Positions 28,997-59,934 of a stretch of 64,000 bases of DNA are shown here, one piece after another. Both the position numbers and the translations under genes were made by a program. The notes under the pieces were generated by a model that searched no databases, was not told the DNA's origin, and saw only the letters and a list, made by a program, of their open reading frames with translations. The stretch lies in NCBI GenBank assembly GCA_964472415.1, contig CAYYLC010000004.1, positions 33,110-97,109 of the forward strand, in the 5' to 3' direction. Positions within the stretch are counted from its first letter, which is position 1, and the number at the start of each line of letters is the position of its first letter. Origin of the DNA: an uncultured Gammaproteobacteria bacterium. GTDB lineage: Bacteria > Patescibacteriota > Microgenomatia > Levybacterales > GWA1-39-11.

Positions 28997-29641
28997 ATGC
29001 CATCAAAATACGTTTTACGAGACTTCAAGCAGGGTGAATACTACCACGTCGCAAATTATGGCGTAGACAAACGGAGTATATTTGAAGATGAAGAGGATTT
29101 TAGAACCTTTCTCTACTATCTAAAAGTATATCTACTTCCCAAAGAAACACTTGAAAAAATGCCCAATCTCCCCAAACGAATGCTCTCAAAAAATAGACAT
29201 TCAGAGGTAGAGCTTCTCTCATATAGCCTCATGCCAAACCATTTTCATTTATTACTGGGCGAAAAAGAGCTCGGCGGAATATCCTTAATCATGAAGCAAC
29301 TCTCAAATGCGTACACCAAGTATTTTAATGAGCGCCACAAACGCTCCGGTAGCTTATTTGAAGGCCCTTTTAAAGCCGCACATGTCAAAAGCGATGAAAT
29401 CATACAAGTCACCCGCTACATTCACCTAAACCCATTCCTTGCGGGACTCGTAGATGATCCTGATAAATACCGCTGGTCTGACTTTCCAACGTACACAAAT
29501 TCGCAAGAGGTGAATATCTCAAACACAAGCCCAGTACTTTCACAATTCAATACGCCAGCTGACTACAAACATTTTGTGCATAACTACATGGACTATGCTG
29601 AAAAAATAAAGGGACTCGACCACGTTTTAATAGATAATTAA
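28997..29641 (+). CDS. IS200/IS605-like Y1 (HUH) transposase family protein (PF01797-like, long form)
   Basis: HUH motif 'LMPNHFHLLL' and a downstream catalytic-Tyr region 'VTRYIHLNP...DPDKYRWSDF'. At 214 aa it is longer than canonical IS200 TnpA. Confidence 0.6.
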   Translation: MPSKYVLRDFKQGEYYHVANYGVDKRSIFEDEEDFRTFLYYLKVYLLPKETLEKMPNLPKRMLSKNRHSEVELLSYSLMPNHFHLLLGEKELGGISLIMKQLSNAYTKYFNERHKRSGSLFEGPFKAAHVKSDEIIQVTRYIHLNPFLAGLVDDPDKYRWSDFPTYTNSQEVNISNTSPVLSQFNTPADYKHFVHNYMDYAEKIKGLDHVLIDN

Positions 29642-31485: not shown

Positions 31486-32493
31486 CTACTTTTTATTGAT
31501 GCTTCTTTTATATAATTCTAAATTTTCTATAGCGACCCCTGTTCCACGCACCACACAATACAATGGGTCTTCAGCAACATATGCTGGAACTCCTGTTTCA
31601 CGAGTAATGTATTTATCTATATTTCTCAAAAGCATAGTGCCTCCGGTAAGAACTATCCCCTTCTCAATAATGTCAGATGACAACTCTGGAGGAGTCTTCT
31701 CAAAAACCTCACGTATAGCTGAGATAATTTTTTTCAGGATCGGCTCGATCCCTTCAAAGACTTGCCCTTCGGTAATCTCTTCTTGCCGCGGCAAACCAGA
31801 AACACTATCGCGGCCTCGAATCTCCATCTTTTTTTCAGAGCTTTCTGAAGGAATTGCATTTCCTAATTTTATTTTCATGTCCTCAGATGAACGCTCTCCA
31901 ATCAATATTCCGAATTTCTTCCTGACATAGTTCACCATTGCCTCCTGAAGTGCATCGCCACCAACGCGTACAGATGCGTGATTTACAATCCCACCCAAAG
32001 AAATCACCGCAACGTCTGTAGTTCCGCCTCCACTATCCAAAATCATATGCCCGCTCGCTTGAGCTATCGGAATTTTTGCACCAATTGCAGCTGCTAACGG
32101 CTCTTCTATTAAATACACCGCCCGAGCTCCCGCAGCATGAGTCGCATCAAGCACTGCCCGTTTTTCTACCTGAGTAATTCCTGAAGGAATACACACCATA
32201 ACTTCAGGTTTTATCAAACGAGATTTCCCTGACACTTTCTGGATAAAATACTCAAGCATCGATTGTGTCACCTGATAATCAGCGATCACTCCGTCTTTGA
32301 GCGGTCGAGATGCAACAATATTTCCTGGTGTTCTCCCAAGCATGTCTTTTGCCTCGAGCCCTACAGCAACAACTTGATTCGTGTCTGCGCGTACTGCAAC
32401 AACTGTCGGCTCATTCAACACAACACCCTGCCCACCGAGATACACGAGCATATTCGCCGTCCCTAAATCTATTCCTATTCGTTTACTAAACAT
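31486..32493 (-). CDS. mreB: rod shape-determining protein MreB
   Basis: 'IGIDLGTANMLVY' and actin-fold motifs throughout. 335 aa. Confidence 0.9.
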   Translation of the reverse strand: MFSKRIGIDLGTANMLVYLGGQGVVLNEPTVVAVRADTNQVVAVGLEAKDMLGRTPGNIVASRPLKDGVIADYQVTQSMLEYFIQKVSGKSRLIKPEVMVCIPSGITQVEKRAVLDATHAAGARAVYLIEEPLAAAIGAKIPIAQASGHMILDSGGGTTDVAVISLGGIVNHASVRVGGDALQEAMVNYVRKKFGILIGERSSEDMKIKLGNAIPSESSEKKMEIRGRDSVSGLPRQEEITEGQVFEGIEPILKKIISAIREVFEKTPPELSSDIIEKGIVLTGGTMLLRNIDKYITRETGVPAYVAEDPLYCVVRGTGVAIENLELYKRSINKK

Positions 32494-32721
32494 TGTGATA
32501 AAAATAATATGCGCGAAATGCTAAACGTAGAAATATATCTAAATACTACCTTTCTATATCATTCTTGCCTAGCTATTATTTACTATAACAGTACATAAAA
32601 TCCGTTGCAAGTATAGGTAATAAGAGTATATCCCAAAGAAAATATTTGATATGGTATAATACACTTTTATTACTCCCGAAGACTTGATTCCTGAAATTAT
32701 TTCCGAGATACTTATACAACT

Positions 32722-33936
32722 ATGGTAAAACACGTCAAAAGCCCGATGCTCAGGACTATTCTGATTGTTCTCGTAATATCTATTGTTGCGATTGGGGCAA
32801 TAGCATATGGAAAGGGCTACCGCATCACAAAAGACGAATCTGGGCGACAAATTGTTGCCGGAACTGGATTGCTCGTAATCACCTCTTCCCCTGATGGCGC
32901 CCGGACATTTATTGATGGCGAGCTTTCAACCGCAACAGATGACACAATAAATCTCAAACCTGGCAAATATACAGTAAAGATTGAAAAGGATGGATATTTT
33001 CCTTGGGAAAAAGAAATAGTAATAAAAAACGAACAGGTTACCGAAACAAATGCACTTCTTTTCCCAAAAGCTCCTCAACTTACCAATCTCACGACTACAG
33101 GAATCTCAAACCCCGTTTCAGATAGTAAGGGGCAAATACTTGCCTACACCGTAGCATCTGCTTCTGCAAATTTGAATGGCGTTTATATCATGAATCTTAA
33201 TCGAGGATTTCTGCCTATCGGAGATGCACACCGACAAATCAGTAGTAATCTCATTGATAACTTTTCAGAAGCGACACTCGAGTTTTCACCAGATAGCTCA
33301 GAGCTTCTCGCAACCATAACACCTACCGCAAGTGGTTCAGCAAGAAGCTACTTGTTGCGAACAAATGAATTCAATCCTTCACCACTACTCGTTACCGCAA
33401 GTGCAGATACTATTCGTGAAAACTGGAAACAAGATATGGAAGAAATTCTCGATGAACGACTTCGCTCGATGCCGAAAAATGCTAGAATTCTTGCAAAAGA
33501 GTATTTTGCAAATCCTCTCTTTTCACCAGAAGAAGACAATATTCTCTATACAGCATCAGCTTCCGGAACGCTCTCTATAGCAATCAACCCGCCCATCCCG
33601 AGCACAAACTCTACTCCTGAGGTACGAAACGTCGTAGAGGGAAATCTTTATGTTTACAATATTAAAGACGATAAAAATTATCTATTTCGTGAAAAAACTG
33701 AAGATACAGAATTTCCACAATTTATCTGGCATCCTGATAACAGACATCTCTACTATATAGAAAACAATAGGATTAACTCGGTAGAATATGACGGATTCAA
33801 TAAAACAACTGTGTACGCTGGACCATTTATCAATAATTTTCTTGTACCATGGCCGGATGGAGCTGGCATGGTCATTCTTACGAGTTTTAACGATTCATCC
33901 ATTCCCCCAAATCTTTATCGCATCATCTTTAAATAG
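32722..33936 (+). CDS. membrane-anchored PEGA-domain protein with beta-rich C-terminal region
   Basis: N-terminal TM helix. 'LLVITSSPDGARTFIDGELSTATDDTINLKPGKYTVKIEKDGYFPWEKEIVIK' is a PEGA domain. Confidence 0.45.
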   Translation: MVKHVKSPMLRTILIVLVISIVAIGAIAYGKGYRITKDESGRQIVAGTGLLVITSSPDGARTFIDGELSTATDDTINLKPGKYTVKIEKDGYFPWEKEIVIKNEQVTETNALLFPKAPQLTNLTTTGISNPVSDSKGQILAYTVASASANLNGVYIMNLNRGFLPIGDAHRQISSNLIDNFSEATLEFSPDSSELLATITPTASGSARSYLLRTNEFNPSPLLVTASADTIRENWKQDMEEILDERLRSMPKNARILAKEYFANPLFSPEEDNILYTASASGTLSIAINPPIPSTNSTPEVRNVVEGNLYVYNIKDDKNYLFREKTEDTEFPQFIWHPDNRHLYYIENNRINSVEYDGFNKTTVYAGPFINNFLVPWPDGAGMVILTSFNDSSIPPNLYRIIFK

Positions 33937-33981
33937 AAAATTCAACTTGCGACTTTCCCGAAAATACGAAATACTTATCGT

Positions 33982-34839
33982 ATGAGAAAAGCAGTATTTT
34001 TTTGTACGGTTCTACTATTCACTACTATCACGACTCCACTGCACGCCCAGACGATGACTTTTCCGGAAAAATCGCAATCAGGGAACACAACAGTAAACGC
34101 TACCGTAGGTGACAGATTTATAACAGTTACCGGCTATCAATCTCCCAATGCATCCGTAGTCATAGAAACGCTTCGGAGAATTTTTATGAGCTCAACTACT
34201 GCTGATGGGAATGGGCATTTTACAATCTCAGAACTCCTTATCACAGATGACTTTCCAGGATTCTGCTTTACCGCGATAGACTTTCGGAGAGTTGGAGAGT
34301 CCGAATCTTGTGTGGAAATAGAAAAAATTACCCGCGACGGCGAAACATACGAGGATATTTTCCTTCCACCGACTATTGGGCTTTCAAAAAAACTTATAAC
34401 AGTCGGAGAAAACGCGCAGATATTTGGATATTCTATGCCACATGCTCAAGTAAATATTCAGTTCAATAATGAAACAGTTACTATTCAATCAGATGAAACA
34501 GGATACTACGAATATATTTTCGAGAACCCTCCCGCCGGAACATATGCATTCTCATCTCGTGGAGTCCTTGGTGAAAAAACATCCCTAGATCCAGAAAATA
34601 AAGCTATCCTTGAGGTGATTACCCTTCCTGAAAAAATTCGTGATGATATAACCGGTTTTGCACAAGATATTGATGACCGATTCCCGGGAATTCTGTTTCT
34701 CGCACCACTTCTTCTGATTTTCATTGCACTGCTTATACTTCTCTTCTGGAAAACACAGCCGAAATTTCTTTTCATTATATTTGACAAATTCAAAAAGCGA
34801 CATCCAATGCACCACGATTACTTCCTATTCCAACACTAA
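33982..34839 (+). CDS. hypothetical surface protein (signal peptide plus C-terminal TM anchor)
   Basis: Signal peptide ending '...PLHA|QT', a beta-rich body and a C-terminal hydrophobic helix with a basic tail. Confidence 0.35.
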   Translation: MRKAVFFCTVLLFTTITTPLHAQTMTFPEKSQSGNTTVNATVGDRFITVTGYQSPNASVVIETLRRIFMSSTTADGNGHFTISELLITDDFPGFCFTAIDFRRVGESESCVEIEKITRDGETYEDIFLPPTIGLSKKLITVGENAQIFGYSMPHAQVNIQFNNETVTIQSDETGYYEYIFENPPAGTYAFSSRGVLGEKTSLDPENKAILEVITLPEKIRDDITGFAQDIDDRFPGILFLAPLLLIFIALLILLFWKTQPKFLFIIFDKFKKRHPMHHDYFLFQH

Positions 34840-35030
34840 TCTTGTATTCATTCTTTGGTGCAGATTTCTATAGACTCATATTTATATAAAAAATACGCGC
34901 TGCCAATACACTCTATGAAACTTTTCCAAAAAAAACCCAATTTATCCTAATATACTACGTGGGGTCATTTATCATGAATTTATATTTTTTCCTTGACAAG
35001 ACTATATAAATGTGTCTTAAATAATATTGT

Positions 35031-36542
35031 ATGATTTCTAGAATTTATCTTCTTCTGCCTTTGCTGGGCATAAGCATCGGTATTACAGGGCTCTTCCTTT
35101 TTGTTTTCACGAAAAATGCTCACGCAGCAACACTTATAAACGCAAGTAACACTATTACAACATCTCGCCCTTCAGCCGCTTCACCCTTTTCTTCAGATGT
35201 TTCTGGTACTGACACTACAGCAGCGATTCTGAATAATGGATCGTTCTATCTTGCATCAGATTCTGCACAAATCAGACAAGGGCAAAGTGGCGCACTTATT
35301 GATGCAGCAACAATTATCGCTTCACAATCTGCAGCACTCACTACTGTGTATTTTTCAGAGGCTGTCGGCGCTGGGGCTGGAGCTGACTCAGATGTTCTCA
35401 TTGTACCAATCACTGCTATGCATAGAATCCAATTTACTATACCTCAAACGATTCCTACCTCTGGAGACATTGTACTCACCTTCCCAATACTTGAGACTGG
35501 AGATGCAAATAATGAAGCTTCTCCTTCTGCCTCTACATTCCAGTTCAACGACCTCGATACGAACGCTGCCACACTCATTCACGTAGTAGATGATGGAACG
35601 GATATCACCGCAAATATTACTGCCGCTGCCACAAATCCTGCGAGCGCTGGGGACTCACCAGAGATCATCATTACCCTTAATAGTGGAAGCATTGTCTCAG
35701 GAAGCGTTGTAGATATATTTATCGGTTGCACAACTATTGCAGCTGGTGACTGCTCTGCCCAGACACCGACACTCATTAACCCGACAAAGACTGCATCAGC
35801 TGGGACTGCTGATGTCTGGAAAATAAATGCTCAGACTCGAGATGCATCTGATGTGAATCTCGATAACGCTACTATTGCTATCGGCACTATTGAATCTGTT
35901 ACCGTTCGGGCAACTGTAGATCCAACACTCTCCTTCACTATTTCTGGGATTGGAAATGGATCAGCAATTAATCTCGGAAACACGACCGGATGCTTGCAAA
36001 CGGAAACAACAAATGCTGGGATTGATTCTACTTCTACTGAGGTAAACCTTGGACTCCTCGCTAATACTCCATCAGGAACTGATGTAAAAGTAGGAAATAT
36101 TGCAGCACAAAGAATCAACATAACCACGAATGCTGCTGGAGGATATATTCTCGCTGCAACATCATCCGGACAACTCATCAACCCAGAAACCGGATTTTTC
36201 CTTAACTCCTCTACCACTCCGACTGCATTCCCTTCAAGTGGCGCTGACTGGTTCGGTATTCATCCGTGTGGACTTGATGTAACTACTGCCACGTGGAATT
36301 CTACTGCAAGTACTGCATGTAGCAGCTTTGTAAGTGGTTCAACAGATCCGATTTGTCTGTATGCGTGGCCTACACAGAGTGCACCACTTACTCTTGCATC
36401 AGATGCAGTAGGACCTATTGGTAACTCACTTGTTACTGGAAATGGAGTAATTTCTGTTGCGTACGCCGCGTCTGTAGATCCGGGAATCCCCCCAGGATCA
36501 TATAGAACAGTAATAACGTATGTGGCAACACCAGTATTCTAG
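35031..36542 (+). CDS. secreted S/T-rich surface protein with WxL-like C-terminal domain (CscB/C-like), paralog A
   Basis: Signal peptide (AHA|A) and a C-terminal ~180 aa with 'LSFTISGIGNGSAINLGN...' and a terminal 'YRTVITYVATPVF'. These parallel WxL domain features ('l.l.svP..inFG', a terminal 'Y.GTLTWTL...P'). Confidence 0.45.
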   Translation: MISRIYLLLPLLGISIGITGLFLFVFTKNAHAATLINASNTITTSRPSAASPFSSDVSGTDTTAAILNNGSFYLASDSAQIRQGQSGALIDAATIIASQSAALTTVYFSEAVGAGAGADSDVLIVPITAMHRIQFTIPQTIPTSGDIVLTFPILETGDANNEASPSASTFQFNDLDTNAATLIHVVDDGTDITANITAAATNPASAGDSPEIIITLNSGSIVSGSVVDIFIGCTTIAAGDCSAQTPTLINPTKTASAGTADVWKINAQTRDASDVNLDNATIAIGTIESVTVRATVDPTLSFTISGIGNGSAINLGNTTGCLQTETTNAGIDSTSTEVNLGLLANTPSGTDVKVGNIAAQRINITTNAAGGYILAATSSGQLINPETGFFLNSSTTPTAFPSSGADWFGIHPCGLDVTTATWNSTASTACSSFVSGSTDPICLYAWPTQSAPLTLASDAVGPIGNSLVTGNGVISVAYAASVDPGIPPGSYRTVITYVATPVF

Positions 36543-36579
36543 AGTTGAGATTATATAAAAATTAATAAATAATAAAAAT

Positions 36580-37563
36580 ATGAAACATCCTGCTCAAGCA
36601 AAATATTTTATAAAAATAACACTCCCCGCAATCCTTATTTCCTTCTTCTTCGTGGCTCTCGCTCAGATCGTATTCGCACAAGAAGCACCTCAAAGAAGCA
36701 TCACAATATCTCCGCCAACCATTGAGCATACTCTTATCCCAGGAGAACGTGCTGAAGGGGTTCTCAAAGTTACAAATGGAGGAAATACTGACCTCACATT
36801 CCAGGCAAATATTCATGACTTTATCGTAGAAGATAAGATTGGAACTCCAAATCTTCTTGCTGATGAAACCTTAACTGAAAAATATTCTGCTGCCACTTGG
36901 CTTGCAGTGACGCCAAATTCCTTCACTGTTCCAGCAGGAACTACGAAGGAGCTAAGCTATTTTCTTCAGGTGCCAGCTGATGCTGCACCAGGCGGAAGAT
37001 ACGCTGCAGTAGTCTATGAGCCAGTTAATATTCTAGATGTTGAAGGGACCGGTGCTGGAGTAAACACCCAATCACTTTCACTCTTTTACATAACTATTGA
37101 TGGACCAATCACAGAAGATGCTGAAGTTGTAAATTTTTCTATTCCAGGATTTTCTGAATATCCTCCTGTAACTGTTTCTACAGAAATTAAAAATAATGGT
37201 CCGCTTCATATTAAACCAAGCGGAAGTATTATTATCCGGAATATGTTTGGCAAAGAAATCGCACGACATGAATTCACTGGCGGAAACATCTTCCCAGAGG
37301 CAACACTCCTGTATGAAAATGAGTTTTTCTCAGATTCAAAGATTCGCGTTGGGCGCTATACGGCAGAACTTTCCACAGCATTTGGTCGCGATCTCAATAT
37401 CCCCCTTGAAGCAACCGCATCATTCATCATCTTCCCTTGGAAAATTGCAGCAGGAATCGCACTTCTTATCGCAATCCTCGTAGTCACAGTTGTGCTCATA
37501 AGAAATAAAAAAACACCTAAAAATCCTCGACCCGAAGCGACGCCTCAACCAACCATAAAATAG
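36580..37563 (+). CDS. DUF916/DUF3324-like cell-surface protein with C-terminal TM anchor (CscA-like)
   Basis: Signal peptide, 'ITISPPTIEHTLIPGERAEGVLKVTNGGNTDLTF' (DUF916-like pattern), a later 'IIIRNMFGKEIARHEF' (DUF3324-like), a C-terminal TM helix and a basic tail. Confidence 0.45.
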   Translation: MKHPAQAKYFIKITLPAILISFFFVALAQIVFAQEAPQRSITISPPTIEHTLIPGERAEGVLKVTNGGNTDLTFQANIHDFIVEDKIGTPNLLADETLTEKYSAATWLAVTPNSFTVPAGTTKELSYFLQVPADAAPGGRYAAVVYEPVNILDVEGTGAGVNTQSLSLFYITIDGPITEDAEVVNFSIPGFSEYPPVTVSTEIKNNGPLHIKPSGSIIIRNMFGKEIARHEFTGGNIFPEATLLYENEFFSDSKIRVGRYTAELSTAFGRDLNIPLEATASFIIFPWKIAAGIALLIAILVVTVVLIRNKKTPKNPRPEATPQPTIK

Positions 37564-37572
37564 GGAAATAGT

Positions 37573-39051
37573 TTGACAGAAGATTTTATTTCTGCGCACA
37601 ATAATACAATGAAGATAATTTTTGTACTTATGATATCCGCAATTCTCTTTTTTGTAAAAATCTCTCATGCGAATGCGGCAGACCTTATCAATACTCGTGA
37701 CACACTCTCAACTTCTCGCCCATCAGCAGCTTCTCCTTTTACCAGTAATGCAGCCTCTAATGACCGGACTATTACAATTTTGAATAACGGATCGTTCTAT
37801 CTTGCATCAGATTCTGCACAAATAATCCGACACTCAACAGGCACAATTCTCGCAACTGATATTCCTATATCTTCTCAATCTGCGGGGCTTTCTACTATCT
37901 ATCTCGGAGATGATATCGGTACGAATACAACTTCAGGAGATGATATATTGCTCGTTCCAATTACCTCAACTCATACCATACGATTTACTACTGCCTCAGA
38001 AATCCCCGCTGGTGGAGATATACTCCTTACATTTCCGGGAGCAGCGAATAACTCTGCTTCTCCTTCTGCAACTACGTTTGCCTTTAATGGGCTAAATAGC
38101 ACTGGTGGACTTCCAGGAGGAATTTCTAGTCATAACATTTCATGTAATACAAATTCCTTTGTTTTTTCTCCACAAATCATGTGTGAAACAACAGGCTCAG
38201 TTCCGGCTGGCACTACAATAACTATTCTTATTGGCTGCACTGCACAGTCCGGTGGAAATTGTACGACTCAATCTCCGACACTCATCAATCCAACAAAGAC
38301 TACAACCACTGGAACCGCAGATATCTGGAAAATATTTATCCAGACCCGAGATGCAACAGACATAGAACTCGACTCTGCAACCGTTGCAATCGGCACAATA
38401 GATTCTGTTACTGTTCGTGCGTCTATTGATCCCTCTCTTACCTTTGCAATTACAGGAATCGGAAATGGTTCAGCAGTTAACCTTGGAAACACGACCGGAT
38501 GCTTGCAAACGGAAATTACCAATTCGGGCCTCAATTCAACCGCAACTGAAATAAATCTTGGACTCCTTGCAGATACTCCATCAGGAATTGATGTAAGAGT
38601 AGGAAATATTGCAGCACAACGAATCAATATTAGCACCAATGCTGCGAATGGCTATACGCTATCAGCAACATCATCCGGTCAACTTATCAATCCTACCACT
38701 GGATTTTTCCTCGCATCTTCTACCACTCCAACCGCATTCCCTTCAAATAGTTCAGATTGGTTCGGTATCCATCCGTGTGGACTTGATGTAACTACTGCCA
38801 CGTGGAATTCTACTGCAAGTACTAGCTGCAATACGTATATTTCGGGTTCAACAGATCCGATTTGTCTGTATGCGTGGCCTACACAGAGTGCACCACTTAC
38901 TCTTGCATCAGATGCAGTAGGACCTATTGGTAACTCACTTGTTACTGGAAATGGAGTAATTTCTGTTGCGTACGCCGCGTCTACTGATGCAGGCGTTCCC
39001 CCAGGAAGTTATTCTACAGTTATCACCTATACTGCAACTCCAGTCTTCTAG
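37573..39051 (+). CDS. secreted S/T-rich surface protein with WxL-like C-terminal domain, paralog A'
   Basis: Same architecture as 35031..36542. The 3' region contains 138 identical nucleotides. Confidence 0.45.
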   Translation: MTEDFISAHNNTMKIIFVLMISAILFFVKISHANAADLINTRDTLSTSRPSAASPFTSNAASNDRTITILNNGSFYLASDSAQIIRHSTGTILATDIPISSQSAGLSTIYLGDDIGTNTTSGDDILLVPITSTHTIRFTTASEIPAGGDILLTFPGAANNSASPSATTFAFNGLNSTGGLPGGISSHNISCNTNSFVFSPQIMCETTGSVPAGTTITILIGCTAQSGGNCTTQSPTLINPTKTTTTGTADIWKIFIQTRDATDIELDSATVAIGTIDSVTVRASIDPSLTFAITGIGNGSAVNLGNTTGCLQTEITNSGLNSTATEINLGLLADTPSGIDVRVGNIAAQRINISTNAANGYTLSATSSGQLINPTTGFFLASSTTPTAFPSNSSDWFGIHPCGLDVTTATWNSTASTSCNTYISGSTDPICLYAWPTQSAPLTLASDAVGPIGNSLVTGNGVISVAYAASTDAGVPPGSYSTVITYTATPVF

Positions 39052-40757
39052 TTCAAATATATACCCTCGCGAGAAACAACGGGTTCTGATGAATTTTCTA
39101 CTCCTACAAGCGGAAGAGTAAATTCAATCGTTGTACCTTGTCCTTCTTGTGATTCCAAAGAGATAACCCCTCCATGCGCATCAACGACTGCTTTCGTAAT
39201 AAATAATCCAAGGCCTGTTCCGCTCCCGCGGTGCTGAATGCTCGTTTGATAAAACTTAGTAAACAGCTCCTTTTGAAGACTTTTTGGTATCCCTATACCA
39301 GTATCACTCACCACAATATGAATGTTCTTTTTATCGGTAAAGATGCGGATCAAAACTCTTCCATTTTCATGGTTATACTTAATCGCATTGGAAAGAAGAT
39401 TATTGAAAATTTGCTCGATTCTGAGCGGATCAAAATGAAAAATGGGTACATCCCCATCTTTTTCAAAATCTATCGTTATATGGCGCTTCTCGGCAAGAAT
39501 CTGAAACATTTTAACCCGATCCTCGATCAATTTTATGATGTCTGAAGGCTTTGGCTCTGTCTCAAATTTCCCTGACTGAATACGCGCAGCATCAAGCAGC
39601 TGATTGATATCATTGAGCATTCGCTCAGAAGAAGATTGGATTGTATCCATCATTTTTTTTCGATTCCCAGAAGACATCTCTCCAGAACTCAAAAGTTCTA
39701 TTCCGCCTTTTATGGATGTAAGCGGTGCACGAAGTTCGTGGACAATCATATTCGTAAAATTCTCCCGTAATCTCTCTGACTCATATTCCAACGTCACATC
39801 CTGCATAGTTATCGCAACACCAATTACTCGCAATGTCGCATTATCAAAAACAGGATTTATCGAAAGATTAAACTGCTTTCCAAATAACTCAATCCCCCGC
39901 AACACTTTCAGCTTTCTCTCTTTCATAACTGTTCTTACTTCTAACACAAAATTCCCTTCATACTGGAATTGAGAAAATACAATATCTGTATCAATTGGCC
40001 CGCTCAATCTCAAATAGCTTCGTGCAGCATTATTGATGGTTATCAGTTTGAGCTGTCCCTGCTCCATCATAAAAAGGATCGCACCAGAAGAAAGGCTATA
40101 AATAAGAGATTGAATCTTCCCCTTCTCAGTATCAATCACATTCTCAAGCCGACCTATCGCAAGCTGAGTCTGATTTACAATTTTATAGAGAAGACTCATA
40201 TCTTTATCCTGATAGATTCTTTTTTCCGGAGATGTGATAGAGATAATCCCCACAAATTTATTATTCAACACTAACGGAATATTAAAATATGAATTTGGAA
40301 CCACATCAAAAGATGTATCTTTATTTCGCAATGGTATTTTCTCACCTATCATTACTGCCGGATACTCAGATATTTTGAAATGCTCTAATGTATCATCAAG
40401 AGTAAAAAGCGCAGTCTGAATAATAGATTTTACCTCTTTCATGTACCCATCAGAAACGTGGTCTTTTATAAAACTCTCAAAGATAATTTCCCCATCAGAA
40501 ACAACTGCATACGAAGCGGTCTTAAGAGGAAAAAGACGCTCTGCAGTAACTGCAATAGTCCTTGCTATATCTTGCGTTTTGAGGCTGTATCCTATCTTAT
40601 CATTTACTTCATGTAAAATATTTAACTCATACAACTGCCTACCTAATTCTTTTTGGGTTTCAAAAAGTCTCTTTCGATTCTTTTCCCAGAGAAATGAAAA
40701 TACGACAGCAAGTGATCCGAACAATACTACCGAAGCAAACAAAAACGGAACAAGCAT
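39048..40757 (-). CDS. sensor histidine kinase (TM, GAF/PAS-like, HisKA, HATPase_c)
   Basis: H-box 'HELRAPLTSIKGG', N-box 'LLSNAIKYN', G1 'VSDTGIGI', G2 'GTGLGLFI'. Confidence 0.8.
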   Translation of the reverse strand: MLVPFLFASVVLFGSLAVVFSFLWEKNRKRLFETQKELGRQLYELNILHEVNDKIGYSLKTQDIARTIAVTAERLFPLKTASYAVVSDGEIIFESFIKDHVSDGYMKEVKSIIQTALFTLDDTLEHFKISEYPAVMIGEKIPLRNKDTSFDVVPNSYFNIPLVLNNKFVGIISITSPEKRIYQDKDMSLLYKIVNQTQLAIGRLENVIDTEKGKIQSLIYSLSSGAILFMMEQGQLKLITINNAARSYLRLSGPIDTDIVFSQFQYEGNFVLEVRTVMKERKLKVLRGIELFGKQFNLSINPVFDNATLRVIGVAITMQDVTLEYESERLRENFTNMIVHELRAPLTSIKGGIELLSSGEMSSGNRKKMMDTIQSSSERMLNDINQLLDAARIQSGKFETEPKPSDIIKLIEDRVKMFQILAEKRHITIDFEKDGDVPIFHFDPLRIEQIFNNLLSNAIKYNHENGRVLIRIFTDKKNIHIVVSDTGIGIPKSLQKELFTKFYQTSIQHRGSGTGLGLFITKAVVDAHGGVISLESQEGQGTTIEFTLPLVGVENSSEPVVSREGIYLN

Positions 40758-53451: not shown

Positions 53452-56400
53452 ATGGAATTTATTGCACTTTTCAAAGACTATCTTTCAAAGAAGAAAATAA
53501 CAAACAAGACGACTGTCAAAAACTATCTCTCTGATATTCGTCATTTTGTGAATTGGTATGAGAAATCATTTGGTATCGCCTTTTCTCCAACAGAATTTAC
53601 CGATGATATTATAAAGCTCTATGAAGGATCTTCTGGTGCTCCGATCCTGGGTGGAAATATTTCAACAGAGAACAAGCTCTCACACTCCTCCCTGAAGCGC
53701 CATCTTTCCTCATTGAGAAAGTTTGCACTATTTCTGACAGAAAATAAACAAGTAGAGAAGAATCCATTTCATCAAGGAAAGGTTAATGGACAGGACTCGA
53801 CACCTGTCGATATTTGGCATATTCAGGAATTCAAAGATTACCTGAAATTTAAGAAAGCATCCCCTCTAACAATAAAGAACTATCTCACAGATATACATTC
53901 TTTCCGGAGATGGTATGAGAACTCTCTCGGGGAGAATTCTGAAGATTTAAGCTTTCCTCGTATCAATAATACGATCGTTTCTGAATACAAAACCCGCCTC
54001 CACGAATATAAAGGTGCTGCACCACGCACAATTAACCGAAAGCTTTCTTCTCTAAGAAAATATGTTGAATTTGCCATCGGCGCATACTACATGAGTGAAA
54101 ACACACTCCATGAAACGACTGCCACAAAACCATTCCTCATCTCCGAAAATGAGGCCAAAGAAGAGAATAAGCTATCACTTACTGAGATAAAATCCCACAA
54201 AATCAATCTAAACTATTCCTCCTTTCCCCCTATCAGACTTATCCAAACTCTGATAATTCTGCCCTATCTCTTCCTTGAAGGATTTCTCGCAGCAAAAATT
54301 GCAGAACTTCTCGGAACAGTAGCACCCCTCACTCTTGCTGCACAGAAACTTACTCCAGCTCCAAAAATATCCTCAATTCCCACCAAACCTTCTGAACTTT
54401 TAAAGGTAAAAGGATATGAGAAAAAGTTCTACGCTCCCCAAGATATTTCCACGAGCAATCTCTCGTCTCCTGAAAAAATCTGGCATAAACTAAAACACAA
54501 TAGACCGAAATGGTATAAAAAATATCATAATACTCCAATAGTTCACTATATTCATTTTGCGATTCTTATCATTTTTGCTGCAGGGGTCGGAGTTGCGCTC
54601 TATAGAAACTTAGTAACTGATACAAAAAGCCCACTCTTTGCAGCCCCCACCTCTCCACCTCGAGTACTCTCCTTCCAAGGTCGGCTTACTGATAATTTGA
54701 ATAATCCCATAACCACTGCGACTGATATTCGCTTCGCGATATATGATGATATTGCAGCATCCGGGTCTGCACTGCTCTGGCAAGAAGTCCATCACGCAAC
54801 AAATCCTGACCAAGATGGAATTTTTTCTGTTTTACTCGGAACTCAAACTGCGATTCCTGATAGTGTATTTTTAGAAAATAATGACATCTATTTAGGAGTA
54901 ACGATCGAACAAACAGAAGAATTAGCACCTCGGAGAAGAATTGCATCAGTTCCCTATGCCGCAAATTCAGAAAGCCTCCAAGGAATGCGCCCCATCACTG
55001 ACACAAGCGCTGGAACCACAAACGTTGTTCTTGCACTCGATTCTTCTGGAGATCTCACAATAGGCGGAGCCGCAAATCCAACATTTTCCGCAACAGGAGG
55101 CCAATTCTCTCTTTCCGGCGATATTTTACTCCTGACAACCGAAACCGGCACAGATTCAAACATAGTACTCTCTCCTGATGGAATCGGTCAGATTGATTTG
55201 CAGAAAACGCTTGTAAATACTTCAACTAACGGAAATCTTGTCCCTGGGGGAGTAGAAGTTAATGATAAATTTGGTGTACTTGCTACAGAATCTGCAGTTG
55301 CCGCATTTATCGTGAATAATGACGGGCTTTCAGATATTTTCACTGCATCCGCATCAGGTGCAACCCGTTTTACTATAGAAAGTGATGGAACATTGATTGC
55401 TCCTAACTACAATACTGCCGGAGGAGTACTCTGGGCAAATGGAAGCGGAGAGATTAACCAATCAACAGGTGGCCTCTCTGGACAATGCCTCCAATCTACT
55501 GGGGGAACTGCTCCCACGTGGGGAGCATGTGACAGCTCGGCTGGTGGTATGTTCCAAGAGCTTGCTGGTGCGATCATACCAAACAATACAACACTTGATT
55601 TTCTCCTCGGTGGAACCGCTACCTCATCCGCCAAATTCTCGGTTCTTAACATGAATTCGGGAACACCAATCGCATCAATATCGGCAAATTTTGGTAACAA
55701 CGCAACCTACCTAACTGGAGATGGAACTCTTGCAACTACAAACCGTCGTGATCTTATCCTCGGAAACTCCTCCTCCTATAATACAACGGGGAATGTTCTT
55801 ATAAACACGAACGGAACAGGGAGAGTCGGGATTGGTACAGGAGCACCATCAACCAAACTTGATGTAAATGGATCAGGAGGCGTAGCGCTATTTGGAACTG
55901 CAAGTCTTGTTGATCAATATATCTCCCTAAGAAGTCCCTCAACGGGAGTATCATTTGGTATTGATGCAAATCTCAATGGAGGAAGCGGCGCGGGACTCAT
56001 ACAAGCAGGGACCAGCAAAGCCCTCGCGTTTGATGCAAACAATGGAACATTCGGCTCTGCCACCACGCCAGATTTATATATTGATACTACAGGGTATGTT
56101 GGGATTGGTGATGCATCACCTACTGCTCTTTTCACGGTAGGAAATGGTGACCTTTTCCAAGTTAACGCAAGCGGCGCAATTGCAGCCGCAACGGGAATAA
56201 CTTCATCTGGCACTATCACCCTTTCAAATCTTAATACAAATGGAGGAATACTATACGCAAACGGATCAGGAGTACTTACCCAAACCGGAGCTGGTACCTC
56301 TTCTCAATGTCTTCTCGGTGGCACTACTCCTACATGGGGAACATGCGCTGATGGAGCTGGCGCATTTACGATCGATGCAGCAAATGGACTAACTGTCCAG

Positions 56401-59400
56401 AATAACACAACCACAGACTTTCTGATCGGAGGGACAGCAACAAGTAGTGCGAAATTTGCATTAACAAATGTGGATTCTGGTCCTCCTACATTTACTGTAG
56501 GGAGTGGGGATCCGATATTGAAAGGGACGTATAATACGAGCGGAGGTGTTGAGGACATCTATGTATCTGGAAAATATGTGTATGTAGCGGATGGCAGCTC
56601 TGGCCTACAGATAATAGACGCATCGGATCCTTCATCTCCAACACTTGTTGGAACATACGATACAAGTGGGAATGCACTCGGGGTTCATGTATCGGGTAAA
56701 TATGCATACATCGCAGACGATACTGTAGGACTTCGAATCATCGACATCTCGGATCCTTCATCTCCAACACTTGTTGGAACATACAATACAAGTGGGAATG
56801 CTCGGAGCATTTATGTCTCAGGAAAATATGCGTATGTAGCAGACGGATTTTCTGGCCTACATATCATTGACATCTCGGATCCTTCGTCACCAACTCTTAC
56901 GGGAACATATGACACAAGTGGATACAGCTACGATGTCTATGTCTCAGGAAAATATGCGTATGTAGCAGATGATAGTGACTTGAAGATCATCGACATCTCG
57001 GATCCTTCATCTCCAACACTTGTTGGAACATACAATACAAGTGGGAATGCTCGGAGCATTTATGTCTCAGGAAAATATGCGTATGTAGGAGATCTAAGCT
57101 CTGGGATTCAGATTGTAAACATCTCGGATCCTTCGTCACCAACTCTTACAGCAGATGGTCCTGGAGGAGCTCATGATGTCTATGTCTCAGGAAAATATGC
57201 ATATGTGCCAAATGGAACGGGCGACTTTCAGCTTATTGACATCTCGGATCCTTCGTCACCAACTCTTACGGGAACATATGACACAAGTGGAGACGCTCGG
57301 AGCATTTATGTCTCAGGAAAATATGCGTATGTAGGAGATCTAAGCTCTGGTCTTCAAATTCTCGAACTCCCCGGCATAGACACTCCGACACTACATACAG
57401 GGAATATTGAAACAGGAAGTATTACCATAACTGAAAATGCAGATATAGGAAACAACCTATATGTACATAATGGACTGAATGTAGGAAATGGTGGTATTTA
57501 TTCACAGGGAGCACTCGGTATATTTTCAGGAACTTCTGGGACAAATCTTATCCAAGGAAATCCTACTGGAAAAGCACTTCTTACCTTGAATAATACCGGT
57601 GGATCTGATATCTTCACCGCCTCTGCTTCCGGTACTACTCTCTTTACCATAACGAATGCTGGAGGATTACGGCTTGGAACAGATGAAGGGACTTCTGGTG
57701 AGTGCCTGCTTTCAGGTGGTGTTGGAGCAGGTGCAAGCTGGGGATCGTGTGGCGCATCTTCCCAATGGACTACCACTGGATCTGATATTTACTACAATAC
57801 CGGGAATGTGGGAATCGGAACATCTGACATAACTGCAAAATTTGAAATATTATCCAACCTTGGCACTGGACATGCAGCATCAATTTCTGCTATAACTGCC
57901 AAATCATCACTTCTCGTCACCAATGATGGAACCGGAGATCTTATCACCGCATCTGCCTCTGGTAGCACAAAGTTCACTGTAGATAATGAGGGAAATATTT
58001 ACCTTTATGGGCAGATTATCGGTATGGGGGCTGACTTTGCTGAATATTATGAAAAAGAAGATTCTGATGAAGAATTTCTTGCAGGAAGTTTAGTATGTCT
58101 TGCAATAAACGGTACTGTTACAAATTGCAAAAATTCAGATACTACTCAGAAATTACTCGGCGTCGTATCAGACAATGCAATTATTGCAGGTAATGGAGAT
58201 AAAAAGGACGACAATAACTATGTCCTTGTAGGGCTTTTAGGACAGCTCCATGTACGGGTCACAGGAGATATACAAGCTGGAGATCCACTCACGATGTCTA
58301 ATCTTTCTGGCGTCGCAGAAAAAGCAACACAAGAAGGATTTATCATCGGATATGCCATGGAATCAAGTTCAAACACCAAAGATCGAATTATTACATCAAT
58401 TAAGTCGACGTACTACAATCCAAATCTCGCGCTCAATATCGCAGGTGACAATGCAGAAGAATTTGCTGCATCGCTCAATATAAAAAATACTGATGGAACA
58501 ATTGCTATTACTGATGTATCAGGAGCTATCATAAAACGTGCAGAGGCATTCTCACACGTCATCTCAGCAAATATAAATGCCGGAATTGTAAACGCACAAA
58601 AAGTTACGGGAAATGTTATAACAGGTACTACTGGTGCATTCCAAAGCCTTACTGCAACAACTGCAAACATCACCTCTGCCTCATTCAATTCGATTAGTAT
58701 TGGTTCAGAAAATGTTCTTATAGCAGGAACTTCTCTTCGCGACTATATCGCAGAGATCGTTGCAGAAAACATTGAAAATGTAAACTTTTCAAATGGTGAG
58801 GAAATCATTTCCCCGCTTGCCTCAATCGACCAGATAAATACGAATATTATCTCCCCACTTGCTGATGACAGTAGTGTGGAGATCGAACTGAAAAAAGATA
58901 GTATTGCGATACATAATACTGAAACTCAAGAAACCGTAGCTGAAATTGATCATGAGGGGAATGCTCGTTTTATCGGAGACATTGAAGCAAATGATGCAAC
59001 ATTTTCAGGGACACTATCAGCTGATAGAATAATCGCAGGAAATATCGATGGACTTGACGAGAAAATCTCTTCTATCGCAGGAAGCCTTGCACAGAACCAT
59101 CCTACTCCATCCTCACCTTCAGCAGATATCACTTCTACAGACGAATTTCAGGTGGGGAATCTCTATGCAGATCTTGGGATTTATTCGGAAGGATTAACGA
59201 TCCTGGGCACTACTACCACAAGTCAACTTACTGCAATGGATAGTATTGCAGTAGGGACTGGATTCGTGATAAACGAAAATTCAATCAATACATTGGGGAA
59301 AACACTTGAAATTCAACCGCTCCGTCAAGGAGCCATCAGCTTCATGGCTGGAAAAGTAATTATTGATACCGACGGAAACATGAATATCAATGGGAATCTT

Positions 59401-59934
59401 AATATTGCAGGAATTTTAAATGCTACAGAAGGAATCTTCTCAAGTATCCAAACGCATAGCCTCGCAACGAACATTATCTCTCCACTTCCAGACTCAGACT
59501 TGGTAATCCAGCTCGGAAATGATAGTAGCGCATCTACTTCGGGGAATGTACGATTCGCAAACACAAAAGGAGAAGAAGTCCTCAAAATTTCCGGTGAAGG
59601 GGACATCGTCTCATCAGGATCTGCGACATTTGAGAAGCTCAGCTTTAACTTAGTCGGTGAAGCAATTGCTAGCTCAGACACCACAGCTATCGCCACAAGC
59701 TCCGCCGGATTCGCAACTATCCAAAAAAATAGACCAGAGCTTACTATCTATAATGAAAAGATCACAAAAGATTCATTGATTTACATAACTCCGATAGGAA
59801 ACATTCAGGACAAATCCATACATCTTCTACGCCAAGTCCCTCATACAGAGGGAAGTGATGGCAGCTTTACCGTAGGAGCATCAGGAACCCCTGCAACTCA
59901 AGATATCCAATTCAACTGGCTGATTGTGAATTAA
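53452..59934 (+). CDS. giant (2160 aa) membrane protein: tandem tyrosine-recombinase core-binding-like (SAM-like) N-terminal domains, one TM helix, extracellular LVIVD-repeat beta-propeller and fibre-like C-terminal region
   Basis: Residues ~1-100 and ~120-230 each match the integrase N-terminal core-binding pattern (KNYLSDIRHFVNWY...; TIKNYLTDIHSFRRWY...TINRKLSSLRKYVEF). A TM helix 'IVHYIHFAILIIFAAGVGVALY' follows. There are at least 9 LVIVD repeats ('SGKYAYVAD...L.IIDISDPSSPTL.GTY.TSG'). Confidence 0.6.
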   Translation: MEFIALFKDYLSKKKITNKTTVKNYLSDIRHFVNWYEKSFGIAFSPTEFTDDIIKLYEGSSGAPILGGNISTENKLSHSSLKRHLSSLRKFALFLTENKQVEKNPFHQGKVNGQDSTPVDIWHIQEFKDYLKFKKASPLTIKNYLTDIHSFRRWYENSLGENSEDLSFPRINNTIVSEYKTRLHEYKGAAPRTINRKLSSLRKYVEFAIGAYYMSENTLHETTATKPFLISENEAKEENKLSLTEIKSHKINLNYSSFPPIRLIQTLIILPYLFLEGFLAAKIAELLGTVAPLTLAAQKLTPAPKISSIPTKPSELLKVKGYEKKFYAPQDISTSNLSSPEKIWHKLKHNRPKWYKKYHNTPIVHYIHFAILIIFAAGVGVALYRNLVTDTKSPLFAAPTSPPRVLSFQGRLTDNLNNPITTATDIRFAIYDDIAASGSALLWQEVHHATNPDQDGIFSVLLGTQTAIPDSVFLENNDIYLGVTIEQTEELAPRRRIASVPYAANSESLQGMRPITDTSAGTTNVVLALDSSGDLTIGGAANPTFSATGGQFSLSGDILLLTTETGTDSNIVLSPDGIGQIDLQKTLVNTSTNGNLVPGGVEVNDKFGVLATESAVAAFIVNNDGLSDIFTASASGATRFTIESDGTLIAPNYNTAGGVLWANGSGEINQSTGGLSGQCLQSTGGTAPTWGACDSSAGGMFQELAGAIIPNNTTLDFLLGGTATSSAKFSVLNMNSGTPIASISANFGNNATYLTGDGTLATTNRRDLILGNSSSYNTTGNVLINTNGTGRVGIGTGAPSTKLDVNGSGGVALFGTASLVDQYISLRSPSTGVSFGIDANLNGGSGAGLIQAGTSKALAFDANNGTFGSATTPDLYIDTTGYVGIGDASPTALFTVGNGDLFQVNASGAIAAATGITSSGTITLSNLNTNGGILYANGSGVLTQTGAGTSSQCLLGGTTPTWGTCADGAGAFTIDAANGLTVQNNTTTDFLIGGTATSSAKFALTNVDSGPPTFTVGSGDPILKGTYNTSGGVEDIYVSGKYVYVADGSSGLQIIDASDPSSPTLVGTYDTSGNALGVHVSGKYAYIADDTVGLRIIDISDPSSPTLVGTYNTSGNARSIYVSGKYAYVADGFSGLHIIDISDPSSPTLTGTYDTSGYSYDVYVSGKYAYVADDSDLKIIDISDPSSPTLVGTYNTSGNARSIYVSGKYAYVGDLSSGIQIVNISDPSSPTLTADGPGGAHDVYVSGKYAYVPNGTGDFQLIDISDPSSPTLTGTYDTSGDARSIYVSGKYAYVGDLSSGLQILELPGIDTPTLHTGNIETGSITITENADIGNNLYVHNGLNVGNGGIYSQGALGIFSGTSGTNLIQGNPTGKALLTLNNTGGSDIFTASASGTTLFTITNAGGLRLGTDEGTSGECLLSGGVGAGASWGSCGASSQWTTTGSDIYYNTGNVGIGTSDITAKFEILSNLGTGHAASISAITAKSSLLVTNDGTGDLITASASGSTKFTVDNEGNIYLYGQIIGMGADFAEYYEKEDSDEEFLAGSLVCLAINGTVTNCKNSDTTQKLLGVVSDNAIIAGNGDKKDDNNYVLVGLLGQLHVRVTGDIQAGDPLTMSNLSGVAEKATQEGFIIGYAMESSSNTKDRIITSIKSTYYNPNLALNIAGDNAEEFAASLNIKNTDGTIAITDVSGAIIKRAEAFSHVISANINAGIVNAQKVTGNVITGTTGAFQSLTATTANITSASFNSISIGSENVLIAGTSLRDYIAEIVAENIENVNFSNGEEIISPLASIDQINTNIISPLADDSSVEIELKKDSIAIHNTETQETVAEIDHEGNARFIGDIEANDATFSGTLSADRIIAGNIDGLDEKISSIAGSLAQNHPTPSSPSADITSTDEFQVGNLYADLGIYSEGLTILGTTTTSQLTAMDSIAVGTGFVINENSINTLGKTLEIQPLRQGAISFMAGKVIIDTDGNMNINGNLNIAGILNATEGIFSSIQTHSLATNIISPLPDSDLVIQLGNDSSASTSGNVRFANTKGEEVLKISGEGDIVSSGSATFEKLSFNLVGEAIASSDTTAIATSSAGFATIQKNRPELTIYNEKITKDSLIYITPIGNIQDKSIHLLRQVPHTEGSDGSFTVGASGTPATQDIQFNWLIVN

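What the first reader, a model, noticed from the sequence alone, without database searches (positions are those of the whole stretch)
36250..38982. Recent gene-conversion tracts between the two WxL-like paralogs
The two genes are otherwise moderately diverged, but three blocks are 100% identical at the DNA level:
- ~31 bp 'ggaaacacgaccggatgcttgcaaacggaaa' (~35978 vs ~38487).
- 36261..36313 vs 38770..38822.
- 36336..36473 vs 38845..38982 (138 bp).

The identical blocks are separated by a fully divergent 22-bp patch, so the pattern is mosaic. Mosaic identity is the signature of ongoing non-reciprocal recombination or homogenisation of the C-terminal wall-binding-like domain, while the N-terminal S/T-rich parts diversify.
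Basis: seen in the sequence. Interest (0 to 1): 0.5.

Follow-up and report, generated by a model that had tools for sequence, protein, structure and literature searches.

The report
Gene conversion between paired surface-protein genes
Two neighbouring genes for secreted cell-surface proteins of an uncultured Levybacteria-like (Patescibacteria) bacterium have recently copied short stretches of DNA into one another, which is a real but ordinary case of gene conversion, in a gene cluster that distantly resembles the WxL surface-protein clusters of lactic acid bacteria.

Summary
Gene 1 (35031-36542) and gene 2 (about 37609-39051) are 69% identical in DNA. They share exact runs of 138, 54, 35 and 31 bp in one fixed register (+2509).

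In the 138-bp run, 45 of 45 conserved codons use the same codon, against 111 of 227 outside the blocks (permutation p<1e-5). Segment trees put gene 2 with the downstream-gene orthologues of other genomes in the N-terminal and middle part, and with gene 1 in the C-terminal part. Both genes return towards their own orthologues in the last 66 alignment columns.

Contigs from other assemblies, one from a second sample, pass through each copy, so collapse is very unlikely. Related genomes carry identical tracts elsewhere in the pair (619 bp in L002). A sister-genome comparison shows transfer in both directions. Gene conversion is therefore supported.

- Neither paralog has a W-x-L motif or a Pfam WxL hit.
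- S/T content is uniform along both proteins.
- Homogenisation is not confined to the C-terminus across the family.

This is a known kind of event in a poorly described Patescibacteria locus. Interest is modest.

The parts
35031..36542 (+). Gene 1. Secreted all-beta surface protein of 503 aa, the upstream paralog.
   Evidence: ORF. Signal-peptide-like N-terminus ending AHA|A. AF2 model pLDDT 87.9, with an N-terminal helix and then beta-sandwich domains. More than 480 homologues with no Pfam domain, and related loci in Levyibacteriota / Patescibacteria MAGs.
36580..37563 (+). WxLIP-like gene of 327 aa between the paralogs: signal peptide, two Ig-like domains and a C-terminal membrane helix.
37609..39051 (+). 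Gene 2, the downstream paralog. The ORF opens at TTG 37573. The likely start is ATG 37609 (480 aa) or 37630 (473 aa).
   Evidence: ORF. Database gene calls of 473 and 480 aa. 69% DNA identity to gene 1.
36336..36473 (+). 138-bp conversion tract, copy in gene 1. Identical to 38845-38982.
   Evidence: 45 of 45 conserved codons use the same codon. Gene 1 and gene 2 form a clade with 100% bootstrap in this segment.
38845..38982 (+). 138-bp conversion tract, copy in gene 2.
   Evidence: A contig from a second sample (L062) spans it with unique flanks on both sides and only 1 SNP in 3601 bp. Three other contigs end inside it.
36261..36314 (+). 54-bp conversion tract, copy in gene 1. Identical to 38770-38823.
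38770..38823 (+). 54-bp conversion tract, copy in gene 2.
36315..36335 (+). 21-bp unconverted island in gene 1, encoding ACSSFVS between conserved cysteines C430 and C442. It matches the gene 2 counterpart (38824-38844) at only 7 of 21 positions.
   Evidence: The gene 1 peptide CSSFVS is unique among 101 family members, whereas gene 2 CNTYIS matches the common family form (consensus CNTYIT). One serine uses TCG in one gene and AGT in the other, which points to old divergence rather than recent mutation.
38824..38844 (+). 21-bp island in gene 2, the family-typical version.
35976..36260 (+). Older, partly decayed homogenised zone in gene 1 (counterpart 38485-38769). It contains the 31-bp and 22-bp exact runs.
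   Evidence: 79.6% identity here, against 69% upstream and 68% downstream. Gene 1 and gene 2 form a clade with 100% bootstrap in alignment columns 1000-1296.
35238..35272 (+). 35-bp exact run (= 37789-37823) inside the strongly conserved NNGSFYLASDS motif. Not tested on its own and probably marginal.
   Evidence: The motif is conserved across the family.
32722..34839 (+). Upstream cluster partners: a PEGA-domain protein (32722-33936) and a 285-aa Ig-like protein with a C-terminal membrane segment (33982-34839).
   Evidence: Pfam. The gene order is conserved in related loci.

Best explanation
**What the genes are.** Gene 1 and gene 2 are old paralogs. They encode secreted, multi-domain beta-sandwich surface proteins. 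They flank a gene for a membrane-anchored, WxLIP-like two-domain protein, in an uncultured Levybacteria-like (Patescibacteria) genome.

**What happened.** The two genes are direct repeats 2.5 kb apart. Homologous recombination has repeatedly copied short stretches from one into the other without reciprocal exchange, which is gene conversion.
- The most recent event or events replaced 54 bp and 138 bp of the C-terminal domain. They left a 21-bp highly mismatched island unconverted. No substitution has accumulated since.
- Older events left the preceding ~285 bp at 80% identity.

**Shown.** The identity, its statistical excess at silent sites, the switch of tree topology along the gene, and recurrence and bidirectionality in relatives.

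**Inferred.**
- The enzymology, presumably RecA-type strand invasion plus mismatch repair.
- That the process is mainly driven by homology and is near-neutral. It may also help keep both paralogs' C-terminal domains compatible with one shared partner.
For: **Silent-site identity.** 45 of 45 conserved codons use the same codon in the 138-bp tract, against 49% outside the blocks. The permutation p is below 1e-5. The GENECONV-like run is 84 polymorphic sites with p<1/2000, and the between-genome controls are not significant.

**Tree incongruence.**
- Columns 170-1000: gene 2 groups with L3_2 and L4_2 at 100%. A gene 1 + gene 2 clade has 0% support.
- Columns 1000-1296 and 1296-1554: gene 1 + gene 2 at 100%.
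- Last 66 columns: gene 1 groups with the upstream-gene orthologues at 71%.

**No DNA-level constraint in the tract.** Orthologues are only 59-73% identical to either copy there.

**Recurrence in other genomes.** L002 has tracts of 619, 147 and 47 bp. L001 has 74 and 58 bp. L039 has 749 bp. L049 has 54, 53 and 43 bp.

**Polarity.** In L002, compared with its sister genome L001, columns 240-400 derive from gene 1 and columns 420-830 from gene 2. Transfer therefore ran in both directions.

**Sequence confirmed by other assemblies.**
- L057 is 100% identical to the window over 32031-38974, through the gene 1 blocks.
- L062, from another sample, spans the whole of gene 2 with 1 SNP.
Against: - No reads were available, so physical linkage across each block rests on contigs only.
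- Three contigs end inside the gene 2 block. Assemblers therefore struggle there.
- No close strain was found. The nearest relatives are 72-77% identical in protein, so donor, recipient and date cannot be fixed for this genome.
- The unconverted 21-bp island needs an extra assumption. That could be two separate tracts, one discontinuous tract with patchy repair, or selection against converting that loop.
- The 31- and 35-bp runs may simply reflect conserved motifs.
Confidence: 0.85

Rival explanations
1. Assembly artefact. The identical blocks arose from a collapsed or mis-resolved repeat, or from bubble popping that merged two nearly identical sequences in a metagenome assembly.
For: The source is a metagenome-assembled contig. 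Two MEGAHIT contigs and one Logan contig terminate inside the gene 2 copy, at 38974, 38884 and 38953. The region is therefore a branch point in assembly graphs.
Against: - Collapse breaks or merges contigs. It does not create two separated copies, each with unique flanks.
- L057 passes through the gene 1 blocks.
- L062, from a different sample (ERZ27247376, 1 SNP elsewhere), passes through all of gene 2. Both are identical to the window in the blocks.
- The flanks after the tract match position-specific orthologues, so the joins are correct.
- Similar tracts occur in unrelated assemblies of other genomes.
- Bubble popping could at most hide one or two differences.
Confidence: 0.04
2. Selection rather than transfer. 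The blocks are identical because the DNA or RNA sequence itself is constrained in both genes, for example by an embedded regulatory element, an RNA structure or extreme codon preference.
For: The tract encodes the most conserved part of the protein, with many invariant residues at positions 442-503.
Against: - Orthologues encoding nearly the same peptide differ at most synonymous sites. They are 59-73% identical in DNA to the window copies across the tract.
- Elsewhere in the same two genes, conserved residues use the same codon only about half the time.
- No ORF of 60 aa or more lies in another frame or on the other strand within 36261-36473.
Confidence: 0.02
3. Programmed or selected variation and co-adaptation. 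Conversion is not just a by-product. Selection maintains it to keep both paralogs' C-terminal domains matched to the single WxLIP-like partner or the cell wall, or to reshuffle surface-exposed parts.
For: - The paralog sits next to a WxLIP-like gene in about 50 loci.
- Conversion recurs in several lineages and runs in both directions.
- A loop between two conserved cysteines stays distinct while both of its flanks are homogenised.
Against: - Tract positions differ between genomes and cover N-terminal, middle or C-terminal parts. This fits homology-driven chance events.
- Most pairs surveyed (L003, L004, L008, L011, L014-L016, L022) show no long tracts.
- There are no silent cassettes, recombination signals or dedicated enzymes nearby.
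- No expression or population data exist.
Confidence: 0.09

Closest known systems
Gene conversion and concerted evolution of bacterial paralogs (for example the tufA/tufB pair of Salmonella, and outer-surface gene families such as opa). Cited from general knowledge.
   Same: Non-reciprocal homologous recombination between full-length paralogs on one chromosome. It gives mosaic tracts of identity that include silent sites, and trees that group paralogs within a genome for the converted segment only.
   Different: The tracts here are short (54-138 bp) and interrupted by an unconverted 21-bp island. The host is an uncultured Patescibacteria lineage with a small genome. A text search found no paper on gene conversion in Patescibacteria surface genes.
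Cassette-based antigenic variation by segmental gene conversion (Neisseria pilE/pilS, Borrelia vlsE, Anaplasma msp2). Cited from general knowledge.
   Same: Segmental copying between related surface-protein sequences produces mosaics.
   Different: Those systems use one expression site plus silent, truncated donor cassettes, and transfer runs one way. Here both genes are complete, each has its own signal peptide, and transfer runs both ways. The net effect in this genome is homogenisation, not diversification.
WxL surface-protein clusters of Lactobacillales and Listeria: two WxL proteins plus one WxLIP (DUF916-DUF3324-TM). Sources: PMC9772566, PMC10599100.
   Different: - The flanking proteins have no W-x-L motifs and no PF13731 hit.
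- They are two similar ~490-aa paralogs, not one small and one large WxL protein.
- There is no PF11797 hit and no NQIDKxxxYFDLK motif.
- The phylum is Patescibacteria, whereas more than 91% of known WxL sequences are in Firmicutes (PMC9772566).

Membership tests
Gene conversion between paralogs | Tracts whose identity far exceeds the background of the pair, including at synonymous sites | tested here: met
   45 of 45 same codons in the 138-bp tract against 111 of 227 outside the blocks, p<1e-5. Run of 84 polymorphic sites, p<1/2000.
Gene conversion between paralogs | Phylogenetic incongruence: paralogs group by genome inside the tract and by orthology outside it | tested here: met
   Segment NJ bootstraps: a gene 1 + gene 2 clade has 0% support in columns 170-1000, 100% in columns 1000-1554 and 17% in the last 66 columns, where gene 1 joins the upstream-gene orthologues (71%).
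Gene conversion between paralogs | An identifiable donor and recipient (polarity) | tested here: inconclusive
   No close outgroup exists for the window genome. The tract is slightly nearer to downstream-gene orthologues (0.69-0.73 against 0.59-0.71). Polarity is resolved only in relative L002 compared with L001, and there it runs in both directions.
Gene conversion between paralogs | Both copies physically real (verified at read level) | not testable with these tools
   No reads are available. As a substitute, independent contigs L057 and L062 traverse the gene 1 and gene 2 copies respectively, with identical sequence.
WxL domain proteins (Pfam PF13731) | Two conserved Trp-x-Leu motifs in the C-terminal domain | tested here: not met
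   Neither paralog contains a W-x-L tripeptide. The tryptophans sit in DVWKIN, DWFGI, TWNST and YAWPTQ.
WxL domain proteins (Pfam PF13731) | A match to the Pfam WxL model | tested here: not met
   No hit for the two paralogs at E<=0.1, for their C-terminal 208 aa at E<=10, or for any of 101 family members at E<=1.
WxL domain proteins (Pfam PF13731) | Secreted protein with the conserved domain at the extreme C-terminus | tested here: met
   Both have signal-peptide-like N-termini. The best-conserved, high-confidence domain runs from about residue 300 to the terminal Phe. This feature is not specific to WxL proteins.
WxL domain proteins (Pfam PF13731) | Encoded in a cluster with a WxLIP (DUF916) protein, as one small plus one large WxL protein | tested here: inconclusive
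   A WxLIP-like gene lies between the paralogs, and the pairing is conserved in about 50 loci. However, the two flanking proteins are the same size (~490 aa), and the WxLIP assignment is itself remote.
WxLIP (DUF916-DUF3324-TM helix) | Signal peptide, two Ig-like domains of about 148 and 112 aa, a C-terminal membrane helix, and 320-380 aa in total (PMC10599100) | tested here: met
   AF2 model of the 327-aa protein: helix 4-30, beta domains 41-173 and 181-284, helix 287-310, pLDDT 91.7.
WxLIP (DUF916-DUF3324-TM helix) | A match to PF06030 (WxLIP_PGBD / DUF916) | tested here: inconclusive
   The window copy scores E=0.11 and 13 bits, against a cut-off of 27.3. Of 104 relatives, 58 hit at E<=1. 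It is the most frequent family, with a best E of 4e-6. In the five copies scanned individually, the four that hit do so over the same region (profile positions 23-112 of 121).
WxLIP (DUF916-DUF3324-TM helix) | A match to PF11797 (DUF3324 / HBD) and the conserved NQIDKxxxYFDLK motif | tested here: not met
   PF11797 is not among the 25 most frequent families listed, of 138 matched. No YFDL-type motif is visible in the sequence (translation).
WxLIP (DUF916-DUF3324-TM helix) | Fold similarity to a solved WxLIP structure | tested here: met

The most novel reading that the evidence does not exclude
The locus may be a previously unrecognised Patescibacteria counterpart of the Firmicutes WxL/WxLIP cell-surface complex. 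In this reading, the two flanking ~490-aa proteins dock through their C-terminal domains onto the single membrane-anchored WxLIP-like protein. Repeated two-way gene conversion would then keep, or reshuffle, those docking and surface-exposed parts. This would give an episymbiotic, small-genome bacterium a cheap way to co-adapt or vary its surface.
Probability: 0.2. Interest if true: 0.55.

Novelty: new member of a known kind. Interest (0 to 1): 0.33.

Why it matters
Gene conversion between paralogs is textbook biology, so the event adds little on its own.

Two things give it modest value:
- It documents active, two-way homologous recombination between surface-protein genes in several uncultured Levybacteria-like genomes. 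The evolution of the cell surface, and so of host or phage contact, is poorly known in this group.
- Following it up exposed a widely conserved Patescibacteria gene cluster: a PEGA protein, a 285-aa protein, the paralog and a WxLIP-like protein. None of its members has a significant Pfam assignment apart from the PEGA domain. The middle member links the cluster, remotely, to the WxL/WxLIP surface complexes of lactic acid bacteria.

There is also a practical point. The 138-bp repeat breaks short-read assemblies at this locus.

Tried and rejected
- **Direct annotation of the paralogs.** Pfam and NCBIfam gave nothing. A PDB sequence-profile search gave only a chance hit.
- **Fold searches of the gene 1 model.** They returned generic Ig-like matches only: integrin legs, Gram-positive pilins, MSCRAMM adhesins, YcnI, BslA/YweA. 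No specific family can be named. The AFDB library was not available.
- **Closer strains.** An exact search for the block core in JGI metagenome contigs found nothing. The nearest homologues' contigs (L058, L059) are only about 70% identical in DNA. L058 shows no long tract, only a 33-bp run, so dating and polarity for this genome failed.
- **A third donor copy in the window.** None was found.
- **Nucleotide-level constraint or an overlapping ORF as the cause.** Rejected.
- **Literature on Levybacteria surface proteins and on gene conversion in Patescibacteria.** Nothing relevant was found.
- **The L009 pair in the survey.** It gave an implausible 28% DNA identity, probably a problem in my own codon-alignment step, and was ignored.
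Full report
**Anatomy.** The region holds a co-oriented gene row:
- a PEGA-domain protein (32722-33936);
- a 285-aa Ig-like protein with a C-terminal membrane segment (33982-34839);
- gene 1 (35031-36542, 503 aa);
- a 327-aa gene (36580-37563);
- gene 2, whose ORF opens at 37573 and whose likely start is ATG 37609 or 37630 (end 39051);
- a convergent histidine kinase (39048-40757, minus strand).

Upstream lie MreB, a WecG/TagA-type glycosyltransferase, an IS200-like Y1 transposase homologue and BacA. Downstream lies ComEC. This is a cell-envelope neighbourhood. Related loci come almost entirely from Candidatus Levyibacteriota and other Patescibacteria MAGs.

**The observation.** In a fixed register of +2509, the two genes share exact runs of 138 bp (36336-36473 = 38845-38982), 54 bp (36261-36314 = 38770-38823), 35 bp, 31 bp and 22 bp. 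The background is 69% DNA identity and 61-66% protein identity. A 21-bp island with 7 of 21 matches (36315-36335) separates the two long runs. 'Fully divergent' slightly overstates the island.

**Is it more than chance or protein conservation?** Yes.
- Outside the blocks, only 111 of 227 codons with a conserved amino acid are the same codon.
- In the 138-bp run, 45 of 45 are the same codon. The longest run is 46 conserved codons using the same codon; it was never reached in 100,000 shuffles.
- In a codon alignment with four syntenic pairs from other genomes, the window pair has 84 consecutive matching polymorphic sites (0 of 2,000 shuffles). With silent sites only, the run is 23 (p=0.001).
- Non-orthologous pairs from different genomes reach only 6-9 sites.
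- Orthologues that encode nearly the same peptide are only 59-73% identical in DNA to either window copy across the tract. No DNA- or RNA-level constraint explains the identity.

**Phylogenetic test.**
- N-terminal and middle part (columns 170-1000): gene 2 groups with the downstream genes of L003 and L004 (100% bootstrap), never with gene 1.
- Columns 1000-1296 and 1296-1554: gene 1 and gene 2 are sisters (100%).
- Last 66 columns: gene 1 returns to the upstream-gene orthologues (71%).

This switch of history along the gene is the signature of gene conversion. The zone before the exact blocks (35976-36260) is 79.6% identical, against 68-69% on either side. It shows the same sister grouping, so older conversions preceded the recent ones.

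**Assembly artefact?** Reads were not available, but other assemblies help.
- A MEGAHIT contig from ENA ERZ27247346 (L057) is identical to window 32031-38974. It passes through the gene 1 blocks.
- A contig from a different sample, ERZ27247376 (L062), spans 36562-40162. That covers all of gene 2 with both unique flanks, and it differs from the window at a single intergenic base.
- Three contigs stop inside the gene 2 block, at 38974, 38884 and 38953. This is what a genuine repeat does to short-read graphs.
- The sequences after the tract match position-specific orthologues, so the joins are correct.

Collapse is therefore very unlikely. At most, a difference or two could have been smoothed away.

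**Recurrence.** The pair is old and syntenic in many genomes. Identical tracts occur at other places in other pairs:
- 619, 147 and 47 bp in the N-terminal and middle part in L002;
- 74 and 58 bp in L001;
- 749 bp in L039;
- 54, 53 and 43 bp in L049.

Most other pairs have none. L001 and L002 are sister genomes, so polarity can be read. The L002 tract is gene-1-like over columns 240-400 and gene-2-like over columns 420-830, so transfers went in both directions. Homogenisation is thus not specific to the C-terminal domain. The proteins are uniformly 24-30% Ser+Thr, so there is no special 'S/T-rich N-terminus'.

**The island.**
- Gene 1's peptide CSSFVS is unique among 101 family members. Gene 2's CNTYIS matches the common family form (consensus CNTYIT).
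- The 14 differences include a TCG/AGT serine switch, so the island is old sequence that escaped conversion, not new mutation.
- It lies between conserved cysteines C430 and C442.
- I cannot tell whether two separate short tracts flank it, whether one heteroduplex was repaired patchily, or whether selection keeps this loop distinct.

**What the genes are.**
- The paralogs have signal-peptide-like N-termini. A confident AF2 model (pLDDT 87.9) shows several beta-sandwich domains.
- Fold searches return only generic Ig-like surface proteins.
- Neither paralog has a W-x-L motif, and no family member hits Pfam WxL. 'WxL-like' fails every direct test.
- The 327-aa middle protein, however, has the WxLIP layout: signal peptide, two Ig-like domains, C-terminal membrane helix (PMC10599100).
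- Its family gives PF06030 (DUF916 / WxLIP_PGBD) as the commonest Pfam hit: 58 of 104 members, best E 4e-6, window copy 0.11.
- Against this, PapD-like chaperones score nearly as well. PF11797 and the NQIDK...YFDLK motif are absent. A family profile finds no WxLIP chain in the PDB by sequence.
- The paralog and the WxLIP-like gene are adjacent in about 50 loci.

I read the cluster as a remote analogue, and possibly a homologue, of WxL clusters. The paralogs are not shown to be WxL proteins.

**Mechanism and verdict.** The best explanation (confidence 0.85) is homology-driven, non-reciprocal recombination between two direct-repeat paralogs. It is recent enough that no substitution has accumulated in 192 bp. 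It is recurrent and bidirectional in the lineage. The enzymology and any adaptive value are inferred, not shown. This is a well-supported but ordinary phenomenon, a new member of a known kind. The modest extra interest lies in the host group and in the WxLIP-like cluster it sits in.

Noticed in passing
window 36580-37563, and about 50 related loci (L001-L059): The 327-aa gene between the paralogs is a remote WxLIP (DUF916)-like protein. It sits next to a paralog-family gene in nearly every related Patescibacteria locus. The arrangement is paralog-LIP-paralog in this clade and LIP-paralog-LIP in others. This suggests an undescribed surface-protein cluster.
   Followed up: partly
L002 2695-4182 and 5825-7300 (GCA_039738455.1), compared with L001: The same gene pair in a relative carries a 619-bp exact tract. 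Compared with the sister genome, that tract is a mosaic of gene-1-derived and gene-2-derived parts, so conversion ran in both directions.
   Followed up: yes
L039 5001-6356, 7559-8986 and 9049-10455: This locus has three family members. Two of them share a 749-bp exact tract and are 96% identical in protein. That could be a very recent duplication or a large conversion.
   Followed up: no
window 53452-59934 (+): A 2160-aa ORF combines LVIVD repeats, beta-propeller and Peptidase_G2-like regions with an N-terminal phage-integrase SAM-like domain. This is an unusual combination.
   Followed up: no
window 28997-29641 (+): An IS200-like Y1 transposase homologue sits between BacA and the WecG/MreB genes. 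L003 and L004 have one at the same relative position, which suggests a fixed rather than mobile copy.
   Followed up: no
window 38884-38982: Three independent short-read contigs end inside the 138-bp repeat in gene 2, at 38974, 38884 and 38953. The repeat is a practical break point for assemblies of this population.
   Followed up: yes
window 37573-37630: The start of gene 2 is ambiguous. The mechanical ORF opens at TTG 37573. Database gene calls use ATG 37609 (480 aa) or ATG 37630 (473 aa). 37609 gives the most signal-peptide-like N-terminus (MKIIFVLMISAILFF...).
   Followed up: partly
window 36522-36539 and 39031-39048 (C-termini of both paralogs): Every family member ends in a conserved ...TYxATPxF motif with an invariant terminal Phe. 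There is no LPXTG or membrane anchor, so how these proteins are held at the surface is unknown.
   Followed up: no
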